Assembly: GCA_041583775.1 (NCBI GenBank)
Contig: JBFHFF010000001.1
Location: forward strand, 27,528-91,527
DNA length: 64,000 nucleotides
Origin: Candidatus Moraniibacteriota bacterium
Lineage (GTDB): Bacteria; Patescibacteriota; Minisyncoccia; Moranbacterales; DUUL01
Reading direction: 5' to 3'
The translations under genes were made by a program, and so were the position numbers. Every line of letters begins with the position of its first letter. The first letter of the stretch is position 1. The notes beneath the pieces were generated by a model. It saw only the letters and a program-made list of their open reading frames with translations, was not told where the DNA came from and ran no database searches. Below are positions 9,421 to 29,563 of this stretch, one piece after another.

Positions 9421-9494
9421 TGGTCGGGCCGCCGAGAGTCGAACTCGGGCTACACACACCCCATGCGCGCGTACTACCGTTATACTACGGCCCG
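9421..9494 (-). tRNA. tRNA-Pro (anticodon GGG), CCA encoded
   Basis: Cloverleaf folded by hand: acceptor CGGGCCG/CGGCCCG 7 bp, U8, D-arm GTAT/GTAC, anticodon stem CGCGC/GTGTG with loop ATGGGGT (GGG at 34-36, G37), T-arm CCGAG-TTCGACT-CTCGG, discriminator A, CCA. Confidence 0.9.
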
Positions 9495-9880: not shown

Positions 9881-10060
9881 TTATTTTCCCAAAAACTCCT
9901 TAATCCTAATTCTCTTCTTTTCTGTTAATCTTTTTCTTGCTTTGAGCTCTCTTGAAGAGAGCTCATTAGCAGCTAAGTGCCCTCCTCCTTTCAATGCGCA
10001 CATTTTTCTTTCTGCATTGGCAATTTTAATTTCCATCTTTCTTTTGGCCTTTCTGGACAT
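9881..10060 (-). CDS. Small, strongly basic hypothetical protein (59 aa), not in the ORF track
   Basis: ATG preceded by GGAGGG with 5 nt spacing; MSRKAKRKMEIKIANAERKMCALKGGGHLAANELSSRELKARKRLTEKKRIRIKEFLGK; two hairpins downstream; sits in a 1 kb non-coding island. Confidence 0.45.
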   Translation of the reverse strand: MSRKAKRKMEIKIANAERKMCALKGGGHLAANELSSRELKARKRLTEKKRIRIKEFLGK

Positions 10061-10451
10061 TGAACCCTCCTTTTTTTAAAAAAATCACCCTACTCGTTTT
10101 GACCTAATTGCAATTTTGCAATTTAAGCCAGGAAAAAAACGCAATTAACTTACGCTCTATTCCAGACTTAGGTCGTTTTTAAAAAACTAATCATTAAATC
10201 TACTAACACCACCAACCTTCCTTATCAAAAAGGTTACTACTTAGAAAAACACTACTTTGTCCACAATTATACAAATATGTCAATATTTGTCAACAAAATT
10301 TATCAAAAAAACAAATTTACTAGCCCAAATTTATTTTAAAAATGGAACACCTTTATTCATTTTTTAGCTCATTTTTAATAACAAAAGAAATCATTGAACT
10401 TCTATGTTTCAAAAAATAAAGCTATTTTTTTACTTTTTTGAGCATCAATAA

Positions 10452-10488
10452 ACAAAAAACCCACGCCGGTATGCAAACCAGCGTGGGT
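10452..10488 (-). terminator. Intrinsic terminator after the Cys-rich gene pair
   Basis: cccacgc ... gcgtggg stem followed by a U-run on the minus strand. Confidence 0.7.
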
Positions 10489-10515
10489 ATATTCAAGGTT
10501 GATAAATTCAGAGTT

Positions 10516-10773
10516 CTAAATTAAAGAACTAGGAGGCTCTGGATGAATAATCGCCCTCCTGCCAATTCCTAAAAAGTTTTTATCTTTCTTTGTTTCACTA
10601 ACAAAGAAGGTGCATCCAGGAAACTTACCTTTAGTCCTAGCTGCAATAACCGGGCAAGTTCCGTTCACTATCATTCCCTTACAATTGCCCTCACTCAATG
10701 CACTGTTTTGACAATCTGGTACTACGGCTATCTCAATTTTTACTTCCAACAATTGATCTTCTACCTTAGGCAT
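10516..10773 (-). CDS. Cys-rich hypothetical protein (85 aa), paralog of the upstream gene
   Basis: Start MPKVEDQ with AAGAGGA SD; four Cys spaced C-x9-C-x8-C(P)-x13-C including a GTCP motif. Confidence 0.65.
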   Translation of the reverse strand: MPKVEDQLLEVKIEIAVVPDCQNSALSEGNCKGMIVNGTCPVIAARTKGKFPGCTFFVSETKKDKNFLGIGRRAIIHPEPPSSLI

Positions 10774-10833
10774 AATTAATTTCCTCTTTTGATTTAAAAT
10801 AATAATGATTGGAATCAAAAACTCTAAAAAACG

Positions 10834-11352
10834 TTAATAAACATTCTCCTTTTCTCTTAATGAATCAATTCTCAAACCATCAATTTTTTTCTCTGCATTT
10901 AACCCAGCGAAAATATCGTAGTCCTTATATCTCTCAACTACAATGCCTTCCTTATCCAAATGATAAATAACGAAGACTAGCCCAAAAAGATTCTTTACTG
11001 TAGAGCATAGGCTGTCCAATAGGAATTCATCGGATTTTTTTTCATCAATCCTCTCAATATCACCAATGATAAGAAAATCACCTCCGATACTACCAACGAC
11101 AGCTCCAAAACCAATCGGAATTTTTTGGGAGAATTTTTGAGCAATCTCTTTAAGCTTGGAAAAATCAGGTTTATTCGTTTTTTTCACAACAGCCTCCTTC
11201 ATTTTAAAAATTCTAGACCGAACTGTTTTGCATCGATCTGTAGGTCTTACTATGCCAGCAGAAATAGGACAAGTTCCATCAAGGACAGAATCGAAACACT
11301 TTTCTGTTCCTTGCTCTTCAATAAATGGACAATTAACTACTAATTGCAACAT
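10834..11352 (-). CDS. Cys-rich hypothetical protein (172 aa): N-terminal 4-Cys domain plus about 120 aa C-terminal domain
   Basis: GGAGG SD 8 nt upstream; NCPF..C..DGTCP..C signature shared with the downstream paralog. Confidence 0.7.
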   Translation of the reverse strand: MLQLVVNCPFIEEQGTEKCFDSVLDGTCPISAGIVRPTDRCKTVRSRIFKMKEAVVKKTNKPDFSKLKEIAQKFSQKIPIGFGAVVGSIGGDFLIIGDIERIDEKKSDEFLLDSLCSTVKNLFGLVFVIYHLDKEGIVVERYKDYDIFAGLNAEKKIDGLRIDSLREKENVY

Positions 11353-11493
11353 AGCAAATTCCTCCCCAGAAATTAGATGTAATTAAGTGCTTTAAGTAAT
11401 TACACAGCGACTTGAAATACTTACAAAAATATTTTAACTATAAAGCTAAAATAAATAGACCCCTAAATCCCTTACCACCTTGAATTTCAAAGA

Positions 11494-11530
11494 ACAAAAA
11501 ACTGACCTCGTTTGGAGGTCAGTTTATTTT
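11494..11530. terminator. Bidirectional intrinsic terminator hairpin
   Basis: ctgacctc-gtttg-gaggtcag with an A-run before and a T-run after. Confidence 0.7.
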
Positions 11531-11545
11531 TATTGGTAAAGTTTC

Positions 11546-11650
11546 CTAATTCATCTTTTTACCCACAAAAACAAAACGACCTCCTGAAATCAGTAGGAGC
11601 AAGATGCTCAAAATCACAGCATAAATTGTTTTCACGGATTGTTTTTTCAT
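11546..11650 (-). CDS. Possible small hydrophobic peptide (34 aa)
   Basis: MKKQSVKTIYAVILSILLLLISGGRFVFVGKKMN; no SD; terminator follows; could be spurious. Confidence 0.2.
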   Translation of the reverse strand: MKKQSVKTIYAVILSILLLLISGGRFVFVGKKMN

Positions 11651-11697
11651 ATAAAATTATTTTATATCTTTTATTATTTTTGTCAACAGGCAAGACA

Positions 11698-13026: not shown

Positions 13027-13224
13027 TTAATTCACTTCCGTGACTAATTTAGTACAAGCATGCAATAAGTATCTTTTCTCTGTTTTTGTATGGCTATCAT
13101 TATTAAATCGAACCTTGATCATTTTATATTGAGGACCACAATAACCACCCTCTATTTCAACAACCACACCACCTTTAAATTTGTCCCCTATTTTTAACCC
13201 AAGAAATTTATCTTCATCAGTCAT
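13027..13224 (-). CDS. Small protein, putative DUF2283-like antitoxin partner
   Basis: 65 aa, immediately downstream (10 nt gap) of the DUF4258-like gene; assignment is by context plus weak similarity. Confidence 0.45.
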   Translation of the reverse strand: MTDEDKFLGLKIGDKFKGGVVVEIEGGYCGPQYKMIKVRFNNDSHTKTEKRYLLHACTKLVTEVN

Positions 13225-13234
13225 AAAACCTCCA

Positions 13235-13570
13235 TCAACTATTTTGGTGTTTATAAATTTCCATCCAAGCTTCTTCTGGAATAAAAATCTCTTTATTTTT
13301 TGGACTTTCTCCAGGGAAAATCCAAGTTGAAATTATTTTTTTCTTCCCTTTTTCAAATTGATACATCACCCAAGTTTCTTTTGTGCTAGATTTCCCTACT
13401 TTACGACGCATAGATGCTACAGTATTTTCAGCGATTCCTTCCTCCTTTCTGTCTGGGAAACGAATAACTCTCTTTATCACATTTGCACCGATTGAGTACT
13501 GAATCATCTTTCTTTTAGAGTGACTTGTCCAATAATAATTTCTATCATTCTTTGGGAATTTAAAATCCAT
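13235..13570 (-). CDS. DUF4258-family protein (putative toxin)
   Basis: YWTSHSKRKMIQYSI fits the DUF4258 signature W-x-x-H-A-x-x-R-M-x-x-R-x-I. Confidence 0.5.
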   Translation of the reverse strand: MDFKFPKNDRNYYWTSHSKRKMIQYSIGANVIKRVIRFPDRKEEGIAENTVASMRRKVGKSSTKETWVMYQFEKGKKKIISTWIFPGESPKNKEIFIPEEAWMEIYKHQNS

Positions 13571-26019: not shown

Positions 26020-27813
26020 TCACTTTTTTCTGTTAAAATATTTTGTGTGTAATAATTCCTCTGATTTTTCTCCTCCTGGCTCTTTTAAAAATTCCTCATA
26101 TAATTTTTTCACTGCTGGATTTTTGTGCGATTTTCGAATTGGCAATTTAGAATCTTTTCGATAAATTACCTCTCTTCGCTCCCTTCTAATCTCTGCATTA
26201 GTCGGGATTGGCTGTCCTCCTCCTCCGAGACAACCACTAGGACATGCCATTATTTCAACAAAATGAAACTCACACTCACCTTTTCGCATCATTTCCAAAA
26301 TTTTCTTGGCGTTTCTAATTTCATGAGCAACTGCAACTTTTATTCTCAATTCTTCAACATTACATTTTCCTTTGGGAATTACAATTTCAGCAGTTTTAAT
26401 CCCCGCCTCCCCTCTTATAGCTTTAAAATCTAACGAAGGCAACTCCTCACGGGTTAATGTTTCATAAGCAGTTCGCAGTGCGGCCTCCATAACACCACCA
26501 GTTGAACCAAAAATTATACCAGCACCAGAATATGTGCCAAGAGCTTGATCGAAGTTTTGATCCTCTAGTTTCAAAAAATCAATTTTCTTTTTTTTCAAAA
26601 ATCTTGCCAACTCTCTTGTGGTTATAACCAAATCAACATCCCGCAAACCGTTTCTTCCCATTTCTTTGCGACCAGCCTCAAACTTCTTTGATGTACAAGG
26701 CATTATAGAAATACTAGCAATATTTTTTTCACTAATTTTCTGTTTTTGAGAATGATATGTTTTTATCATTGCTCCCAACATCTGTTGTGGAGATTTTGCA
26801 GTAGAAAGATGTTCTTTGTATTCTGGCCAATATTTTTCTAAATATAAAACCCAAGAAGGACAACAACTTGTAAACATAGGAAATTTAACATCCTTATCCC
26901 CTTTAAGAAATTTTGTGATTCTCTCAATAAGCTCATGAGCTTCTTCAATAATTGTTAAGTCCGCTGAAAATGTTGTATCGAAAACTAAATCAGCACCAAT
27001 TTTCCTTAAAGCTGTTGGAATTTTTTCCTCAACAAAATTTCCTGGCTCCAACCCAAATTCTTCACCAAGAGTAAAACGCACAGAAGGAGCTACTTGAAAA
27101 ATTTTAATTTTTGACTTATCTTCCATAAGCTCTTCTAGTTTCAAAACCTCATCCTTTTCTGTTATTGCCGCAGTTGGACAAACATTTGCACATTGTCCGC
27201 ACAAAATACAGTCCATGGGCACATTACATGCAGTTCCAACGCTTGTTTGAATTGAACGACCACTCATTGAATATTCTCCTATTGTTTGAATTTGTGTACA
27301 AACCCTAATACACCTTCCACATTCAATACAATATTGATTATCCCTTGCTATTGAAGGATTTCCATTATCCACTATTCTACCTTTTAAACTTTCCTTTAGG
27401 GCTCTTAATTTTTGTTCTTCATCAAACTTTTTGATTTCTGGAACAAAATCAAAAACATCAAGCTTATATTCTTTTGCTAAATTTTGTAATTCACAATTTC
27501 CATTTTTTAAACAATGCGCACATTTTCCCGCATGATCAGCCCAAAGCAATTCAAGATTTATTTTCCTTGCCTTTTCTATATCGTCATCCTCTGTAACTAT
27601 TTCTAGTCCATCAGCAACAGTCAGTTGACAAGAAGTTGTTAACTGACTATGGTCTTTAACCTTAACTAAACACAGACGACAAACTCCACCCGAGGATAAT
27701 AAATCATCATGATTACAAAGCGTTGGAATTCTAATGCCATTCCTTTGACAAACTGCTAAAACGGTTTCGCCTTCTTGGCAATCGTAAATTTTATCGTTTA
27801 TTTTAATTTGCAC
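26020..27813 (-). CDS. hydA: [FeFe]-hydrogenase catalytic subunit HydA (N-terminal 2Fe-2S and 4Fe-4S domains plus H-cluster domain)
   Basis: H-cluster motifs L1 TSCCPSW, L2 MPCTSKKFE, L3 EIMACPSGCLGGGGQP. Confidence 0.9.
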   Translation of the reverse strand: MQIKINDKIYDCQEGETVLAVCQRNGIRIPTLCNHDDLLSSGGVCRLCLVKVKDHSQLTTSCQLTVADGLEIVTEDDDIEKARKINLELLWADHAGKCAHCLKNGNCELQNLAKEYKLDVFDFVPEIKKFDEEQKLRALKESLKGRIVDNGNPSIARDNQYCIECGRCIRVCTQIQTIGEYSMSGRSIQTSVGTACNVPMDCILCGQCANVCPTAAITEKDEVLKLEELMEDKSKIKIFQVAPSVRFTLGEEFGLEPGNFVEEKIPTALRKIGADLVFDTTFSADLTIIEEAHELIERITKFLKGDKDVKFPMFTSCCPSWVLYLEKYWPEYKEHLSTAKSPQQMLGAMIKTYHSQKQKISEKNIASISIMPCTSKKFEAGRKEMGRNGLRDVDLVITTRELARFLKKKKIDFLKLEDQNFDQALGTYSGAGIIFGSTGGVMEAALRTAYETLTREELPSLDFKAIRGEAGIKTAEIVIPKGKCNVEELRIKVAVAHEIRNAKKILEMMRKGECEFHFVEIMACPSGCLGGGGQPIPTNAEIRRERREVIYRKDSKLPIRKSHKNPAVKKLYEEFLKEPGGEKSEELLHTKYFNRKK

Positions 27814-27836
27814 ATCTTCAATTTTATAAATTATTT

Positions 27837-29069
27837 CTATTTCAATTCATCACAAAACCCATAACGAAGAACATCTTTTAATGCGATGACGGAAAATTTG
27901 CCCAAAGCACATAATGTCGTGTTATCAAGAGTCCACACCAAATTTTTAAAATCCTCCCTATCATTTTCTGAAAAAGTTCCTTCATTCAATCGCTCTATAA
28001 TACTTTTCAATCTAAATGTTCCCTCTCTACAAGGAACGCATTGGCCACAAGATTCTCTGTGAAAAAAATTTATCCAACTAAGCATAAGTCTTTTGATGTC
28101 TTGGTTTTTACTTATAACTAAAATAGCACCAGAGCCCATTGGAACATAAGAACTTCGAGGGTATGCAGGGACTGCTCCAAAAGATCCAAAAGGAATCAGA
28201 ACCCCTGCAGAACCACCTACTTGAGCAAACCAAGGCTCGTCACCATCTACAATACCTCCAGCATATTTATATACTATATCGTTTATACTTGACCCCATAG
28301 GCGCCTCATATGCACCAGGATTTTTAACAATCCCATCTACACAAAATATTTTTGTTCCAACTTCTCCATTGCCACCAATTTGTGAATATCTAGTCCCACC
28401 ATACTCCATTATCCAGGGAATACTAGATAGAGTCTCTGTGTTATTAACAACTGTTGGTTTATTAAATAAGCCTTTTTCACTCGTATATGGTGGTCTTTTC
28501 CTTGGTTCCCCTCTTTTACCCTCAAGTGAATTAATAAGAGCAGTCTCTTCTCCGCAAATATAAGCCCCCGCACCAACAAATAATTCTAATTCCAAACTAA
28601 AATCACTTCCCATTATATTTTCTCCCAAAAAATTGTTTTCATATGCTTGAGAAATTGCTCTCTCCAATAAAAAATGAGCTAGATGAAAATTTCCATTTGC
28701 ATAAACATAAGCCTTGCTAGCACCAACTGCATACGCACCAATAATAATACCTTCGATAAGTTGGTGAGGGTCATTTTCTGCAATTAATCTATCTTTATAA
28801 GTTCCTGGCTCAGACTCATCTAAATTACAAATAAAGTATTTCTCTTTCTCATCAGAGGCAGTAACAATTTCCCATTTTTTTCCAGTAGGAAATCCTCCAC
28901 CTCCTCGCCCTTTCAATCCAGAATTTACAACTTCATTGACAACAGCCTGTGGCTTCATTTGTAAAACTTTTTGCAAAATTTGATAACCACCAATTTTACG
29001 ATAACTGGTTATTTCCTTTGGGTCAATCTTCCCCCAATTTCTAGTTAAAACTTTTTGATCCTCTTCCAT
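27837..29069 (-). CDS. hydB: NuoF-like NAD(P)H/flavin subunit of bifurcating hydrogenase (HydB/HndC)
   Basis: GRGGGGFPTG FMN/NADH motif and C-terminal ESCGQCVPCREG 4Fe-4S. Confidence 0.9.
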   Translation of the reverse strand: MEEDQKVLTRNWGKIDPKEITSYRKIGGYQILQKVLQMKPQAVVNEVVNSGLKGRGGGGFPTGKKWEIVTASDEKEKYFICNLDESEPGTYKDRLIAENDPHQLIEGIIIGAYAVGASKAYVYANGNFHLAHFLLERAISQAYENNFLGENIMGSDFSLELELFVGAGAYICGEETALINSLEGKRGEPRKRPPYTSEKGLFNKPTVVNNTETLSSIPWIMEYGGTRYSQIGGNGEVGTKIFCVDGIVKNPGAYEAPMGSSINDIVYKYAGGIVDGDEPWFAQVGGSAGVLIPFGSFGAVPAYPRSSYVPMGSGAILVISKNQDIKRLMLSWINFFHRESCGQCVPCREGTFRLKSIIERLNEGTFSENDREDFKNLVWTLDNTTLCALGKFSVIALKDVLRYGFCDELK

Positions 29070-29113
29070 TTGTTTTTATTTTTGCTTGAAATATAAACTA
29101 ACCTATTCCATTT

Positions 29114-29563
29114 CTATTCAAATTCCGTATAACCCCTCAAAATGTCATCTACCATCTCTGGCGTAACCTTCTCATACATTACATCATTTACAACCATGAT
29201 GGGGCCTTGTGAACAAAAACCGAAACAACTCACTCTTTCAATTTTAATTTTATGATTAAAGTTGTCGTCAACTTTCTGTCCAAAAAATCTCTCAATTTCT
29301 CGAATAATCTTATCTGAATTTTTTGTACAACAATTCGCTCCATCGCAAATTTTCACAACAATACTAAATTTTTCCGCAGTATTTATCTGATCATAAAAAC
29401 TTGCTGCACTGAAAACAGCTGCTGGTTTCATTTTAAAATATTTAGCAATTTGATCAATAGCCTGCGCATCAACTATGCCAAAATTTTTTTGAACATCCTT
29501 AATAACCCTTAAAAGATTCTCAGGTCTAACTTCATATTGCATTAAAATGTTTTGGATTGTCAT
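29114..29563 (-). CDS. hydC: NuoE-like thioredoxin-fold 2Fe-2S subunit (HydC/HndA)
   Basis: CDGANCC ... CFGFCSQGP cysteine pattern of NuoE. Confidence 0.85.
   Translation of the reverse strand: MTIQNILMQYEVRPENLLRVIKDVQKNFGIVDAQAIDQIAKYFKMKPAAVFSAASFYDQINTAEKFSIVVKICDGANCCTKNSDKIIREIERFFGQKVDDNFNHKIKIERVSCFGFCSQGPIMVVNDVMYEKVTPEMVDDILRGYTEFE

What the first reader, a model, noticed from the sequence alone, without database searches (positions are those of the whole stretch)
10452..11660. Tandem paralogous Cys-rich proteins sharing an unrecognised C-x9/10-C-x8-C(P)-x12/13-C signature
Two adjacent minus-strand genes (85 aa and 172 aa) both have strong SDs (AAGAGGA, GGAGG). They share an N-terminal module with four cysteines at conserved spacing: VVPDC..GNC..NGTCPV..PGC in one, VVNCPF..EKC..DGTCPI..DRC in the other. 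The longer one adds a Gly-rich C-terminal domain (IPIGFGAVVGSIGGDFLIIGDIER). The signature does not match ferredoxin, rubredoxin, zinc-ribbon, BFD or radical-SAM patterns that I can recall, so it is probably a novel metal (Fe-S or Zn) binding module. The pair is insulated by intrinsic terminators on both sides, and an optional hydrophobic 34-codon ORF lies upstream. It sits about 15 kb from the [FeFe] hydrogenase operon and may be a redox or metallochaperone accessory.
Basis: seen in the sequence. Interest (0 to 1): 0.55.

Follow-up and report, generated by a model that had tools for sequence, protein, structure and literature searches.

The report
Attenuator-controlled four-cysteine protein operon
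The two adjacent cysteine-rich genes are real and belong to a very rare, unannotated protein family found so far only in a few ultra-small (CPR/Moranbacteria-type) bacteria. The "upstream terminator plus optional tiny ORF" is in fact a conserved leader-peptide switch that most likely turns the operon on and off.

Summary
Observation confirmed. Both minus-strand genes (172 aa, 10834..11352; 85 aa, 10516..10773) carry C-x9/10-C-x8-C-P-x12/13-C. This pattern occurs nowhere else among the 960 six-frame ORF segments of the window (0.02 expected).

No Pfam, NCBIfam, PHROGs, PADLOC, PDB-sequence or fold-search match was found. Relatives are extremely rare: 6 distinct proteins among 1.84 billion representatives, one of them from Candidatus Moranbacteria.

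In every related locus, a ~95-aa alpha/beta-domain gene is followed directly by a 65-82-aa four-Cys gene. The four Cys and the Pro are invariant in the six aligned copies. The module occurs free or fused to the alpha/beta domain, so the two probably work together.

The "insulating" upstream terminator and "optional" 34-codon ORF are one conserved ~160-nt leader (11490..11651). It has a strong promoter and an apparently leaderless ORF kept open in all 10 copies. Three mutually exclusive helices (1:2, 2:3, 3:4 plus U-run) are each supported by compensatory changes. That is the anatomy of a leader-peptide transcription attenuator.

Metal binding (Zn or Fe-S) is plausible but untested. The proposed hydrogenase link is not supported. 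The function remains unknown.

The parts
11659..11686 (-). Sigma-70-type promoter of the unit (TTGACA, 16-nt spacer, TAAAAT). The -10 hexamer ends 8 nt before the leader ATG.
   Evidence: One search gives an 11/12 match. Equivalent 11/12 promoters stand at the same place in L004, L014 and L018. The 8-nt distance from the -10 hexamer to the ATG is identical in all type-a leaders.
11490..11651 (-). Conserved leader RNA, a candidate transcription attenuator. It is the only copy in the 64-kb window.
   Evidence: The covariance model R1 scores it at 150.6 bits, E 6e-27. No other copy is found in the window, while copies stand upstream of every related cassette. MFE is -44.6 kcal/mol with z -4.2 against shuffles. 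No Rfam family matches.
11546..11650 (-). Leader ORF of 34 codons (MKKQSVKTIYAVILSILLLLISGGRFVFVGKKMN). It is probably leaderless, and its stop codon lies in the apical loop of the 2:3 hairpin.
   Evidence: An ORF of 26-34 codons from the same ATG is kept in all 10 leader copies. The other two frames carry 38 and 19 stops over the same spans.
11626..11637 (-). Region 1 of the leader (CCGUGAAAACAA). It can pair with region 2 at 11563..11574, acting as an anti-antiterminator.
   Evidence: 12 pairs, 90.8% of cells paired against 43-60% when the partner is slid, and two pairs with changes on both sides (CG to UA, UG/CG to AU).
11558..11584 (-). Region 2, the 5' arm of the long antiterminator hairpin (GGAGGUCGUUUUGUUUUUGUGGGUAAA). 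It lies inside the leader ORF.
   Evidence: the 25-pair helix is 94% paired, with 9 pairs changed on both sides.
11514..11540 (-). Region 3, the 3' arm of the antiterminator hairpin. Its last 9 nt (CUGACCUCC, 11522..11514) are also the 5' arm of the terminator.
11496..11525 (-). Intrinsic terminator of the leader (regions 3:4 plus a U-run).
   Evidence: 11 pairs followed by TTTTTT.: -14.7 kcal/mol; the terminator core is 97.8% paired across copies, with compensatory changes.
11361..11367 (-). Shine-Dalgarno sequence GGGGAGG of the 172-aa gene.
10834..11352 (-). 172-aa gene: an N-terminal four-Cys module fused to an alpha/beta domain.
11230..11331 (-). Fused four-Cys module (aa 8-41, CPFIEEQGTEKCFDSVLDGTCPISAGIVRPTDRC).
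   Evidence: The same module is at the N-terminus of P0004.
10882..11160 (-). Alpha/beta domain (aa 65-157) with motifs GxGAV and FxLDxxC. The predicted order is helix-strand-strand-helix-strand-strand-helix.
   Evidence: 6 relatives; invariant G83 F110 L112 D113 C116 F148; pLDDT 63-80 per 10-residue block over aa 61-150.
10782..10788 (-). Shine-Dalgarno sequence AAGAGGA of the 85-aa gene.
10516..10773 (-). 85-aa stand-alone four-Cys protein.
   Evidence: A profile of four independent orthologues hits it at E 4.5e-21.
10612..10713 (-). Four-Cys module of the 85-aa protein (aa 21-54, CQNSALSEGNCKGMIVNGTCPVIAARTKGKFPGC).
10459..10488 (-). Intrinsic terminator that ends the operon.
   Evidence: 12 pairs, 8 of them G-C, followed by TTTTTT. 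Equivalent terminators follow the Cys gene in L004, L014 and L018.

Best explanation
The region is one self-contained transcription unit, in this order: promoter, ~160-nt leader (short ORF plus conditional terminator), 172-aa gene, 85-aa gene, terminator.

**Proteins.** There are two new building blocks.
- A ~35-40-residue four-Cys module, C-x7-10-C-x8-C-P-x12-14-C. It occurs free as a basic 65-85-aa protein, or fused to the second block.
- A ~95-aa alpha/beta domain with an invariant (L/I)(D/N)xxC. It occurs as two paralogue types in related genomes.

My reading is that the four invariant cysteines hold one metal centre (structural Zn or an Fe-S cluster) that folds the mini-domain. I also infer that the mini-domain docks on the alpha/beta domain to form a small complex. 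This is inferred from the gene fusions and from the strict gene adjacency.

**Control.** The unit is most likely gated by ribosome-mediated transcription attenuation.
- With no ribosome, region 1 pairs with region 2, and regions 3:4 form the terminator.
- A ribosome that runs to the stop codon in the apical loop melts region 2. The terminator again forms.
- A ribosome stalled early on the hydrophobic leader ORF covers region 1 only. Regions 2:3 then form and RNA polymerase reads into the genes.

**Shown:** the genes, the signature and its conservation, the synteny, the fusions, the leader's conservation, its ORF, and three covarying alternative helices.

**Inferred:** metal binding, complex formation, that the ribosome (rather than a ligand or a protein) is the trigger, and the signal sensed. 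The cellular role is unknown.
For: **Signature and family**
- the four Cys and the Pro are invariant.
- only 2 hits in 62 kaa, against 0.0185 expected.
- in the related loci, only cassette proteins match the pattern. One match is a C-terminal copy in a 113-aa protein of L018.

**Synteny**
- in L004, L010, L011, L014 and L018 the domain gene, or in L018 a different 113-aa gene in its place, is followed directly by a small Cys-module gene.

**Fusion**
- P0004 and the window protein carry module plus domain. Other members carry the domain alone.

**Domain paralogy**
- hhalign 96%, E 1.3e-9.

**Domain model**
- block-mean pLDDT 63-80 over aa 61-150, order a-b-b-a-b-b-a.

**Leader**
- first sign of conservation.
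- alignment and fold.
- 10 copies at 74-169 bits, only upstream of cassette genes, and one copy in the window.
- ORF kept open, with a constant 8-nt distance from the -10 hexamer to the ATG.
- three mutually exclusive helices, each 91-98% paired against 0-60% in slid controls, all with changes on both sides.
- a strong promoter stands before the leader, none is detected between the leader terminator and the first gene, and a separate terminator follows the last gene.
Against: AlphaFold gives pLDDT below 45 for both Cys modules, so no Cys4 geometry could be checked.

**Unusual spacing.** All-long Cys spacing, with no CxxC, is unusual for Zn or Fe-S sites.

**Weak module homology.** Homology between the free and fused modules is statistically weak.

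**Narrow sample.** The family is known from only about nine distinct domain sequences and five or six loci.

**Attenuator caveats**
- The leader peptide has no clean run of one regulatory codon. Part of its "conservation" is forced by RNA pairing.
- The long hairpin can also close with a 1b:4 helix next to the U-run, so the read-through state is inferred, not seen.
- The alignment used for the 2:3 counts was fitted to that structure.
Confidence: 0.55

Rival explanations
1. The cysteines are redox-active thiols rather than metal ligands. They would form a disulfide or persulfide relay between the small protein, the fused module and the invariant LDxxC cysteine of the alpha/beta domain.
For: There is no CxxC or His ligand pattern, and all Cys are far apart. 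The alpha/beta domain has its own invariant Cys at the start of a helix, preceded by Asp. P0004 carries 10 Cys.
Against: Exactly four Cys are invariant, in Gly/Pro-rich loops, which is typical of a single metal centre. No thioredoxin-like, rhodanese or TusA (CPxP) signature or Pfam hit was found. The proteins have no signal peptide, and stable disulfides are not expected in the cytoplasm of an organism that is probably anaerobic (an [FeFe] hydrogenase is encoded).
Confidence: 0.2
2. The leader is not ribosome-sensing. It is either a riboswitch or protein-dependent antiterminator (possibly autoregulated by the basic Cys protein), or an independent small gene for a hydrophobic membrane peptide (type I-toxin-like) with its own terminator.
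For: Much of the "peptide" conservation follows RNA pairing. Where the stem changes, the peptide changes too: GGQFVFAGK becomes SERAYFWG in L018b. The peptide looks like a single membrane helix with basic ends. The stand-alone Cys proteins are basic, pI 8.4-9.3. The leader is multi-copy: 3 copies in L018.
Against: The ORF is intact in 10 of 10 copies, from a conserved ATG at a fixed 8 nt from the -10 hexamer, and always stops in the apical loop. Every copy is co-oriented with, and directly upstream of, genes that lack their own strong promoter. The 1:2 / 2:3 / 3:4 layout is the classical attenuator layout. No Rfam riboswitch matches. No antisense RNA gene is evident.
Confidence: 0.2
3. The two window modules are not homologous. 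The shared spacing is convergence or coincidence, and the 172-aa N-terminus is a lineage-specific extension.
For: The sequence statistics are weak: BLASTP over 15 residues, the stand-alone profile hits the 172-aa ORF only at E 0.24, and hhalign probability is 17%.
Against: The pattern is expected 0.02 times per window yet occurs twice, in adjacent genes. The 172-aa ORF is still the second-best of 960 ORFs. The C-x8-C-P core and the final Cys align in all six copies. A third architecture, the C-terminal module of the L018 113-aa protein, sits in the same cassette.
Confidence: 0.1
4. One reading: the pair is a redox or metallochaperone accessory of the nearby [FeFe] hydrogenase or of Fe-S assembly.
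For: A three-gene [FeFe]-hydrogenase cluster is present 15 kb away. The proteins are Cys-rich.
Against: About 15 unrelated genes, on separate transcription units, lie between them. In the annotated related loci the cassette sits next to NrdDG, ribosomal protein L9 and CTP synthase, with no hydrogenase or Fe-S-assembly Pfam hit. By reading of ORF translations only, the L014 neighbours look like a UMP-kinase-like gene, HrcA and GrpE, and L018 has an NrdG-like gene. There is no similarity to HydE/F/G or to Isc/Suf/Nif proteins.
Confidence: 0.04
5. The cassette is a selfish or defence module (toxin-antitoxin, anti-phage) that moves between genomes.
For: Small genes, patchy and very rare distribution, variable gene content (fused versus split; the middle gene is swapped between L011 and L018), and a small hydrophobic peptide upstream.
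Against: There are no PADLOC or PHROGs hits. The Cys-protein DNA motif was not found in viral contigs. Local base composition is the same as the rest of the window. No integrase, repeat or tRNA-adjacent insertion signature flanks the cassette.
Confidence: 0.07

Closest known systems
Leader-peptide transcription attenuators of amino-acid operons (trpL, leuL, ilvL/ivbL, pheL; from my own knowledge of these systems)
   Same: A promoter-proximal short ORF is followed by an intrinsic terminator before the first structural gene. There are four RNA segments with mutually exclusive 1:2, 2:3 and 3:4 pairings. The leader peptide is hydrophobic and rich in Ile/Leu/Val, or in Phe in the type-c copies, like ilvL, leuL and pheL.
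   Different: - The ORF appears leaderless (-10 hexamer 8 nt before the ATG).
- There is no clean run of one regulatory codon.
- The ORF runs through the whole 5' arm of the antiterminator and stops in its loop.
- The downstream genes are not biosynthetic.
- Several copies form a small regulon.
- The related loci, where named, are from CPR-type bacteria. I found no such attenuator described for them in the paper library.
Ribosome-stalling attenuators of resistance and translation-stress genes (ermK, bmrB-bmrCD, vmlR leaders; from my own knowledge)
   Same: A short, often hydrophobic leader ORF whose stalled ribosome selects antiterminator over terminator. The downstream genes are not amino-acid biosynthesis genes.
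   Different: No resistance or ABC-F gene lies downstream. No known arrest motif is present. Nothing here tests a drug response.
Cys4 metal modules: ferredoxin CxxCxxCxxxCP, rubredoxin and zinc-ribbon CxxC...CxxC
   Same: Four invariant Cys in about 35 residues, Gly-rich loops, and a Pro directly after one Cys (as in the ferredoxin C-P).
   Different: No CxxC knuckle is present, and all spacings are 7-14 residues. There are no Pfam or PDB hits. The fold could not be predicted.
Twin Cx9C (CHCH) proteins of mitochondria
   Same: A C-x9-C spacing occurs in the first Cys pair of the stand-alone proteins.
   Different: The second pair is C-x12-14-C, and an x8 linker ends in C-P. No helix-turn-helix pair is predicted. 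CHCH proteins are eukaryotic and disulfide-based. No sequence similarity was detected.
Small two-layer alpha/beta sandwich domains (profilin-like / ADF-cofilin, longin/roadblock, PAS/GAF, RuBisCO small subunit)
   Same: The same order of secondary structure elements (a-b-b-a-b-b-a) and the same size. Such domains usually dimerise or bind small partners.
Type I toxin peptides (Hok, TisB, Ldr, Ibs, Fst; from my own knowledge)
   Same: An ORF of about 30 codons encoding one hydrophobic helix with basic ends, a highly structured mRNA, and several copies per genome.
   Different: The ORF is always directly upstream of, and co-oriented with, the cassette genes. Its terminator is part of a three-way alternative structure. 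No antisense partner was seen.

Membership tests
4Fe-4S ferredoxin (Fer4) | CxxCxxCxxxCP motif and a Pfam Fer4 match | tested here: not met
   No CxxC is present in either protein. No Fer4 hit appears even at E up to 10.
Rubredoxin / zinc ribbon / DksA-type C4 | Two CxxC (or CxxH) knuckles | tested here: not met
   Spacings are x9-10, x8 and x12-13. There are no Pfam, NCBIfam or PDB hits. The only Pfam line is Zf_WRKY19 at E 0.17, 12 bits against a cut-off of 27.
Radical SAM | CxxxCxxC and a Radical_SAM domain | tested here: not met
   The motif is absent, and there is no Pfam hit.
BFD-like [2Fe-2S] | A Fer2_BFD profile match (C-x-C ... C-xx-C) | tested here: not met
   No Pfam hit, and neither C-x-C nor C-xx-C is present.
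TusA / SirA sulfur carrier | A single catalytic Cys in a CPxP motif on a ~80-aa alpha/beta fold | tested here: not met
   The C-P is followed by V/I/L/A-x, not x-P. There is no Pfam hit.
[FeFe]-hydrogenase maturases or Fe-S assembly proteins (HydE/F/G, Isc/Suf/Nfu) | Sequence membership, and linkage to hydrogenase or Fe-S assembly genes across genomes | tested here: not met
   There are no family hits. The hydrogenase is 15 kb away, behind unrelated genes. No hydrogenase or Fe-S-assembly gene lies beside the cassette in the related loci (ORF reading only).
Leader-peptide transcription attenuator | A short translated ORF between the promoter and the first structural gene | tested here: met
   A 26-34-codon ORF starts from a conserved ATG in 10 of 10 copies. 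Translation itself was not tested.
Leader-peptide transcription attenuator | An intrinsic terminator downstream of the ORF and upstream of the genes, with no separate promoter for the genes | tested here: met
Leader-peptide transcription attenuator | Mutually exclusive 1:2, 2:3 and 3:4 helices kept by compensatory change | tested here: met
   Caveat: there are only 10 copies, and the alignment was fitted to the 2:3 helix.
Leader-peptide transcription attenuator | A run of codons for the sensed amino acid, placed so that a stalled ribosome masks region 1 only | tested here: inconclusive
   Ile/Leu/Val-rich (type a) or Phe/Trp-rich (type c) stretches lie between regions 1 and 2. They are not clean runs, and RNA pairing partly forces them.
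Leader-peptide transcription attenuator | Termination or read-through that depends on ribosome position | not testable with these tools
   This needs in vitro or in vivo transcription assays, or Term-seq.
Known riboswitch or cis-regulatory RNA (Rfam 15) | A covariance-model match at or near the gathering score | tested here: not met
   Only the tRNA passes the gathering score in the window. In E-value mode, the best hits in the leader are terminator look-alikes far below their cut-offs.
Roadblock/LC7, longin, profilin-like alpha/beta domains | Significant fold or profile similarity | tested here: inconclusive
Anti-phage defence or phage protein families | A PADLOC or PHROGs profile match, or presence on viral contigs | tested here: not met

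The most novel reading that the evidence does not exclude
A regulon private to CPR bacteria. Several transcription units of small, unannotated proteins would each be gated by copies of one leaderless leader-peptide attenuator that reports on translation or on the supply of hydrophobic amino acids. Its core would be a new metal-binding mini-fold (Cys4 with no CxxC knuckle) docking on a new alpha/beta domain. As far as I could find, that would be the first attenuation system described in these reduced, host-dependent bacteria, and also a new metalloprotein family.
Probability: 0.3. Interest if true: 0.7.

Novelty: new variant of a known kind. Interest (0 to 1): 0.5.

Why it matters
CPR/Patescibacteria make up a large part of bacterial diversity, yet almost nothing is known about how they regulate genes or what their many private small proteins do.

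This locus offers a compact, testable case.
- It carries a conserved RNA switch with the full anatomy of a classical attenuator. The switch can be tested with reporter fusions, in vitro transcription, or by mapping existing metatranscriptome reads.
- It controls a conserved pair of protein modules with a clear biochemical hypothesis: one metal centre held by four invariant Cys, bound to a partner domain.

If confirmed, it would add a new Cys4 module type and show that translation-coupled attenuation operates in these organisms.

If the proteins turn out to be ordinary Zn-stabilised adaptors, the find is still a clean new family and a new RNA motif, but of modest reach.

Tried and rejected
**Family and sequence searches with no result**
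- Single-sequence scans of both window proteins, and of all cassette proteins from related loci, against Pfam, NCBIfam, PHROGs and PADLOC found nothing.
- PDB sequence searches with single proteins and with a profile found nothing.

**Homologue searches**
- The word-indexed search of 5.8 billion proteins returned only the query for each protein.
- With a profile it returned only 4 members.
- Exhaustive phmmer against 1.84 billion representatives found 6 relatives, all through the C-terminal domain.
- The scan of GTDB species-representative genomes found one locus, a Moranbacteria genome already in hand.
- A degenerate DNA motif for GNCxGMxxxGTCP found nothing in viral contigs. In metagenomes it found 6 contigs, two of them new (L014, L018).

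**Structure**
- The 172-aa model is usable only for aa 63-153. The 85-aa model is useless, with pLDDT 42.

**Technical dead ends**
- MAFFT kept mis-aligning the 85-aa protein onto the alpha/beta domain, so I ignored that alignment.
- A first regex for the leader was wrong and found only noise. The covariance model replaced it.

**Other checks**
- Taxonomy of the window organism could not be established: cluster look-ups carry no names.
- Two literature searches (CPR plus leader peptide plus attenuation; Moranbacteria plus cysteine-rich) found nothing.
- A search for cassette paralogues elsewhere in the window (A-type domain, and the 66-, 68- and 122-aa genes) found none.
Full report
**1.

The minus strand carries a 172-aa ORF (10834..11352) and an 85-aa ORF (ATG at 10773, stop at 10516). 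Their Shine-Dalgarno sequences are GGGGAGG and AAGAGGA, each 8 nt before the ATG. Gene callers on three independent assemblies made the same two calls.

The cysteine spacings are:
- C8-x10-C19-x8-C28-P-x11-C41 in the 172-aa protein;
- C21-x9-C31-x8-C40-P-x12-C54 in the 85-aa protein.

The pattern C.{7,11}C.{8}CP.{11,14}C matches only these two neighbouring ORFs among the window's 960 six-frame ORF segments. Residue shuffles predict 0.0185 matches.

Hairpin-plus-U-run terminators lie at 11525..11499 and 10488..10459. The hydrophobic 34-codon ORF is at 11546..11650. A three-gene [FeFe]-hydrogenase cluster (HydA large-subunit protein, NuoF-like and NuoE-like proteins) is at 26020..29563. Base composition is uniform at about 33% GC, with no island signal.

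**2. No known family matches, and relatives are extremely rare.**

The following searches gave nothing for either protein:
- Pfam and NCBIfam;
- PHROGs;
- PADLOC;
- PDB sequences.

The word-indexed search of 5.8 billion proteins returned only the queries. Exhaustive phmmer against 1.84 billion representatives found six relatives of the 172-aa protein. All match residues ~65-157.

This is a separate ~95-aa domain, with invariant G83, F110, L112, D113, C116 and F148 (motifs GxGAV ... FxLDxxC ... IF). Only P0004 (183 aa) also has the N-terminal Cys module. Aligned with the window module, it keeps all four Cys, C-P-I, S-V-x-D and G.

One relative, P0008, is annotated as a hypothetical protein of Candidatus Moranbacteria. 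The window's own organism could not be named. I treat "CPR-like" as an inference from the shared cassette.

**3. The genomic context turns two orphan genes into a conserved cassette.**

In every locus that holds a relative of the domain, the next gene downstream is a small Cys protein of 65-82 aa. In four loci it is clearly orthologous to the window's 85-aa protein:

| Locus | Cys-protein core |
|---|---|
| L004 (Moranbacteria) | ...CPNSTPGGGNCKGMIKSGTCPLSRGFAGKYDKC... |
| L011 | ...CHNVGVGEGNCSGMVMYGTCPAVRLGSERGKFPEC... |
| L014 | ...CFNSGVGEGNCRGMVKHGTCPVVSTNSSGRFPGC... |
| L018 | ...CFNGGVGEGNCLGMIKHGTCPALRSDSKRGKFPEC... |

L010 has a more divergent version.

A profile of the four non-window orthologues finds the window ORF at E 4.5e-21. 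Sixteen columns are invariant, including all four Cys, G-N-C-x-G-M and G-T-C-P.

Aligning four stand-alone proteins (window, L004, L011, L010) with the two fused modules leaves exactly five invariant columns: C, C, C, P, C.

In L004, L011, L014 and L018 an extra gene of 101-130 aa sits upstream. It is a second paralogue type of the alpha/beta domain (hhalign 96%, E 1.3e-9).

The architectures are therefore:
- [A][B][Cys] in the "split" loci (L004, L011, L014);
- [Cys~B][Cys] in the window and in L010;
- [A][113-aa protein ending in a Cys module][Cys] in L018.

Fusion of the module to either end of a partner, together with invariable adjacency, is the main argument that the module and the alpha/beta domain act together.

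No further paralogues exist in the window. The neighbours of the cassette differ between loci. NrdDG, ribosomal protein L9 and CTP synthase carry Pfam hits. A UMP-kinase-like gene, HrcA and GrpE in L014, and an NrdG-like gene in L018, are my reading of ORF translations. In the window the neighbours are miaA and tRNA-Pro. The cassette is thus self-contained, and no hydrogenase or Fe-S-assembly gene was seen beside it.

**4. Are the two window modules paralogues?**

The sequence statistics are weak:
- BLASTP aligns 15 residues.
- The stand-alone profile ranks the 172-aa ORF second of 960, but at E 0.24.
- hhalign gives E 1.4e-3 with probability 17%.

The rarity of the pattern, its double occurrence in adjacent genes, the aligned C-x8-C-P core, and its recurrence in three architectures within one cassette make common origin the better reading. 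I put this at about 0.8-0.9, not as proven.

**5. Structure.**

AlphaFold2 with the four admissible sequences gave a moderately confident model for the alpha/beta domain. Block-mean pLDDT is 63-80 over aa 61-150, and the order is helix-strand-strand-helix-strand-strand-helix. The Cys module scored pLDDT below 40. The 85-aa protein scored pLDDT 42.

- Foldseek against the PDB and against viral models gave nothing below E 0.05. The weak list holds ADF/cofilin, LOV/GAF and longin domains.

The domain is a small two-layer alpha/beta sandwich of a generic kind, and no family can be assigned.

**6. The upstream "terminator plus optional ORF" is a conserved leader.**

A tblastn of the 34-aa peptide against all loci showed it upstream of every cassette. 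It also showed a similar "peptide" on the opposite strand just downstream. That is the signature of nucleotide-level conservation with an inverted repeat.

Five copies align at 71% mean column identity. A covariance model built from them finds:
- exactly one copy in the 64-kb window (11490..11651, 150.6 bits);
- five further copies not used for training, at 74-127 bits.

Every copy is co-oriented with, and directly upstream of, a cassette gene. In the Moranbacteria-type loci, extra copies precede a 66-aa gene and a 121/122-aa gene. No Rfam family matches.

Each unit has an 11/12-match promoter right before the leader. No comparable promoter lies between the leader terminator and the first gene. 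A separate terminator follows the Cys gene.

**7. Anatomy of the leader.**

(a) *The ORF.* All ten copies keep an ORF of 26-34 codons from the same ATG. It runs through the 5' arm of a long hairpin and stops in or at its apical loop. Over the same spans, the other two frames hold 38 and 19 stops. In the type-a copies the -10 hexamer always ends 8 nt before the ATG, so the ORF is probably leaderless.

(b) *Three mutually exclusive helices are supported across the ten copies.*

| Helix | Window coordinates | Cells paired | Slid controls | Pairs changed on both sides |
|---|---|---|---|---|
| 1:2 | 11626-11637 with 11563-11574 | 90.8% | 43-60% | 2 |
| 2:3 (long antiterminator) | 11558-11584 with 11514-11540 | 94% | not reported for this helix alone | 9 |
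| 3:4 (terminator core) | 11518-11522 with 11502-11506 | 97.8% | 0-54% | 2 |

For the full stored structure that contains helix 2:3 (33 pairs), 92.5% of cells pair, against 37-53% when the partner is slid.

Region 3 covaries with both of its partners. CUGACCUCC / GGAGGUCAG / GGGUCAG becomes GCCGGCCUCU / AGAGGUCG / GAGGUCGG, and then GCCAGCUC / GAGCGGGC / GUUGGC.

(c) *An additional closure.* RNAfold also lets region 4 pair with a region-3 look-alike, "1b" (CUGAUUUC), just 5' of region 2. This closes one very long hairpin next to the U-run.

This is the layout of a classical ribosome-mediated attenuator:
- With no ribosome, 1:2 forms (or 1b:4 plus 2:3) and transcription terminates.
- A ribosome that has reached the stop codon melts region 2, so 3:4 forms and transcription terminates.
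- A ribosome stalled early masks region 1 and 1b, so 2:3 forms with region 4 left unpaired, and transcription reads through.

The leader peptides are hydrophobic. Type a is rich in Ile/Leu/Val, and type c in Phe/Trp. From my own knowledge, this resembles ilvL, leuL and pheL.

There is no clean codon run, however, and part of the peptide "conservation" is dictated by RNA pairing. Where the stem changes, the peptide changes too (L018b). The trigger is therefore inferred. It could be aminoacyl-tRNA supply, general translation stress, or something else.

Caveats: there are only ten copies from a few lineages, and the alignment was fitted to the 2:3 structure.

**8. What the proteins most likely do.**

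Four invariant Cys sit in Gly/Pro-rich loops of a ~35-residue module that AlphaFold cannot fold. The stand-alone forms have no signal peptide and are basic, with pI 8.4-9.3. The genome encodes an [FeFe] hydrogenase, so the organism is probably anaerobic. Together these point most simply to one tetrahedral metal centre (Zn or Fe-S) that organises a docking mini-domain.

The all-long spacing, with no CxxC, is unusual. That is why a thiol or persulfide relay involving the invariant LDxxC cysteine of the partner domain is kept as the main rival.

Nothing here links the cassette to hydrogenase maturation, to phage defence or to mobile elements.

**9. Verdict.**

It is a rare, conserved, self-contained operon of two new protein modules under a new attenuator-type leader. 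The related loci, where named, are from CPR-type bacteria.

By kind it is not exotic: it combines a Cys4 mini-domain, a small alpha/beta partner and a leader-peptide attenuator. Each piece, however, is a new variant with no detectable relative in the curated libraries. The function is unknown.

I score interest at 0.5. The more novel reading is a CPR-private regulon that senses translation and is built around a new metalloprotein fold. I give it about 0.3 probability.

Noticed in passing
L004 6748-6898; L018 10970-11121 and 11543-11692; L011 1873-2002: Extra copies of the same leader (74-127 bits) stand upstream of other small unannotated genes in the Moranbacteria-type loci: a 66-aa gene and a 121/122-aa gene (MGKILL..PKRIFLTATDKRNRFSCL...). 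The leader therefore seems to define a small regulon, not just one operon. Type-c leader peptides are rich in Phe/Trp rather than in Ile/Leu/Val.
   Followed up: partly
L018 10272-10613 versus L011 596-973: Two closely related loci share nearly identical A-type and Cys genes, but their middle genes differ. L011 has a normal 125-aa B-type domain protein. L018 has an unrelated 113-aa protein whose C-terminus carries a Cys module (CNRVKGTSRCMNKISNGNCPKRKGIPCRC).
   Followed up: partly
window 10516-10590 (C-terminal tail of the 85-aa protein); tails of P0005-P0008: Several B-type domain proteins end in a short shared motif, G-(I/L)-x-(F/Y/H)-(I/V) (ERGLNFIGRR, ERGIHYVSSR, NEGISYIGQ, DAGISHIER). 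The window's 85-aa protein has a similar stretch (KNFLGIGRRAII) in a tail that the Moranbacteria orthologues lack. It may be a short docking motif.
   Followed up: no
window 10266-10293 (-) and 9881-10060 (-): A perfect consensus promoter (TTGACA, 16-nt spacer, TATAAT; 12/12) lies just downstream of the operon terminator. It precedes a very basic 59-aa ORF (MSRKAKRKMEIKIANAERKM...) that gene callers also predict in L002 and L003. The ORF has no Pfam match.
   Followed up: partly
window 9421-9494 (-): tRNA-Pro(GGG) is the only tRNA, and the only Rfam gathering-score hit, in the 64-kb window.
   Followed up: yes
window 26020-29563 (-): A three-gene [FeFe]-hydrogenase cluster: a 597-aa HydA with an N-terminal 2Fe-2S and 4Fe-4S ferredoxin region, a NuoF-like 410-aa protein and a NuoE-like 149-aa protein. 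By my knowledge this is the layout of a bifurcating-type enzyme. It is notable in a small, low-GC genome that may be CPR-like.
   Followed up: partly
L004 785-3481: The anaerobic ribonucleotide reductase NrdD appears split into two called genes (698 aa and 104 aa, both hitting PF13597) separated by about 285 nt. This could be a frameshift, an intervening element or a true split.
   Followed up: no
window 1-64000: GC skew is negative in almost every 2-kb bin, and cumulative skew falls nearly monotonically. Most of the genes listed in the first 30 kb are on the minus strand. The window therefore probably lies within one replichore, with no origin or terminus.
   Followed up: no
window 13027-13570 (-): Two more small genes (65 aa and 111 aa) have no Pfam match. 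They sit between miaA and a DUF192 gene and are called as genes in L001 and L002.
   Followed up: partly
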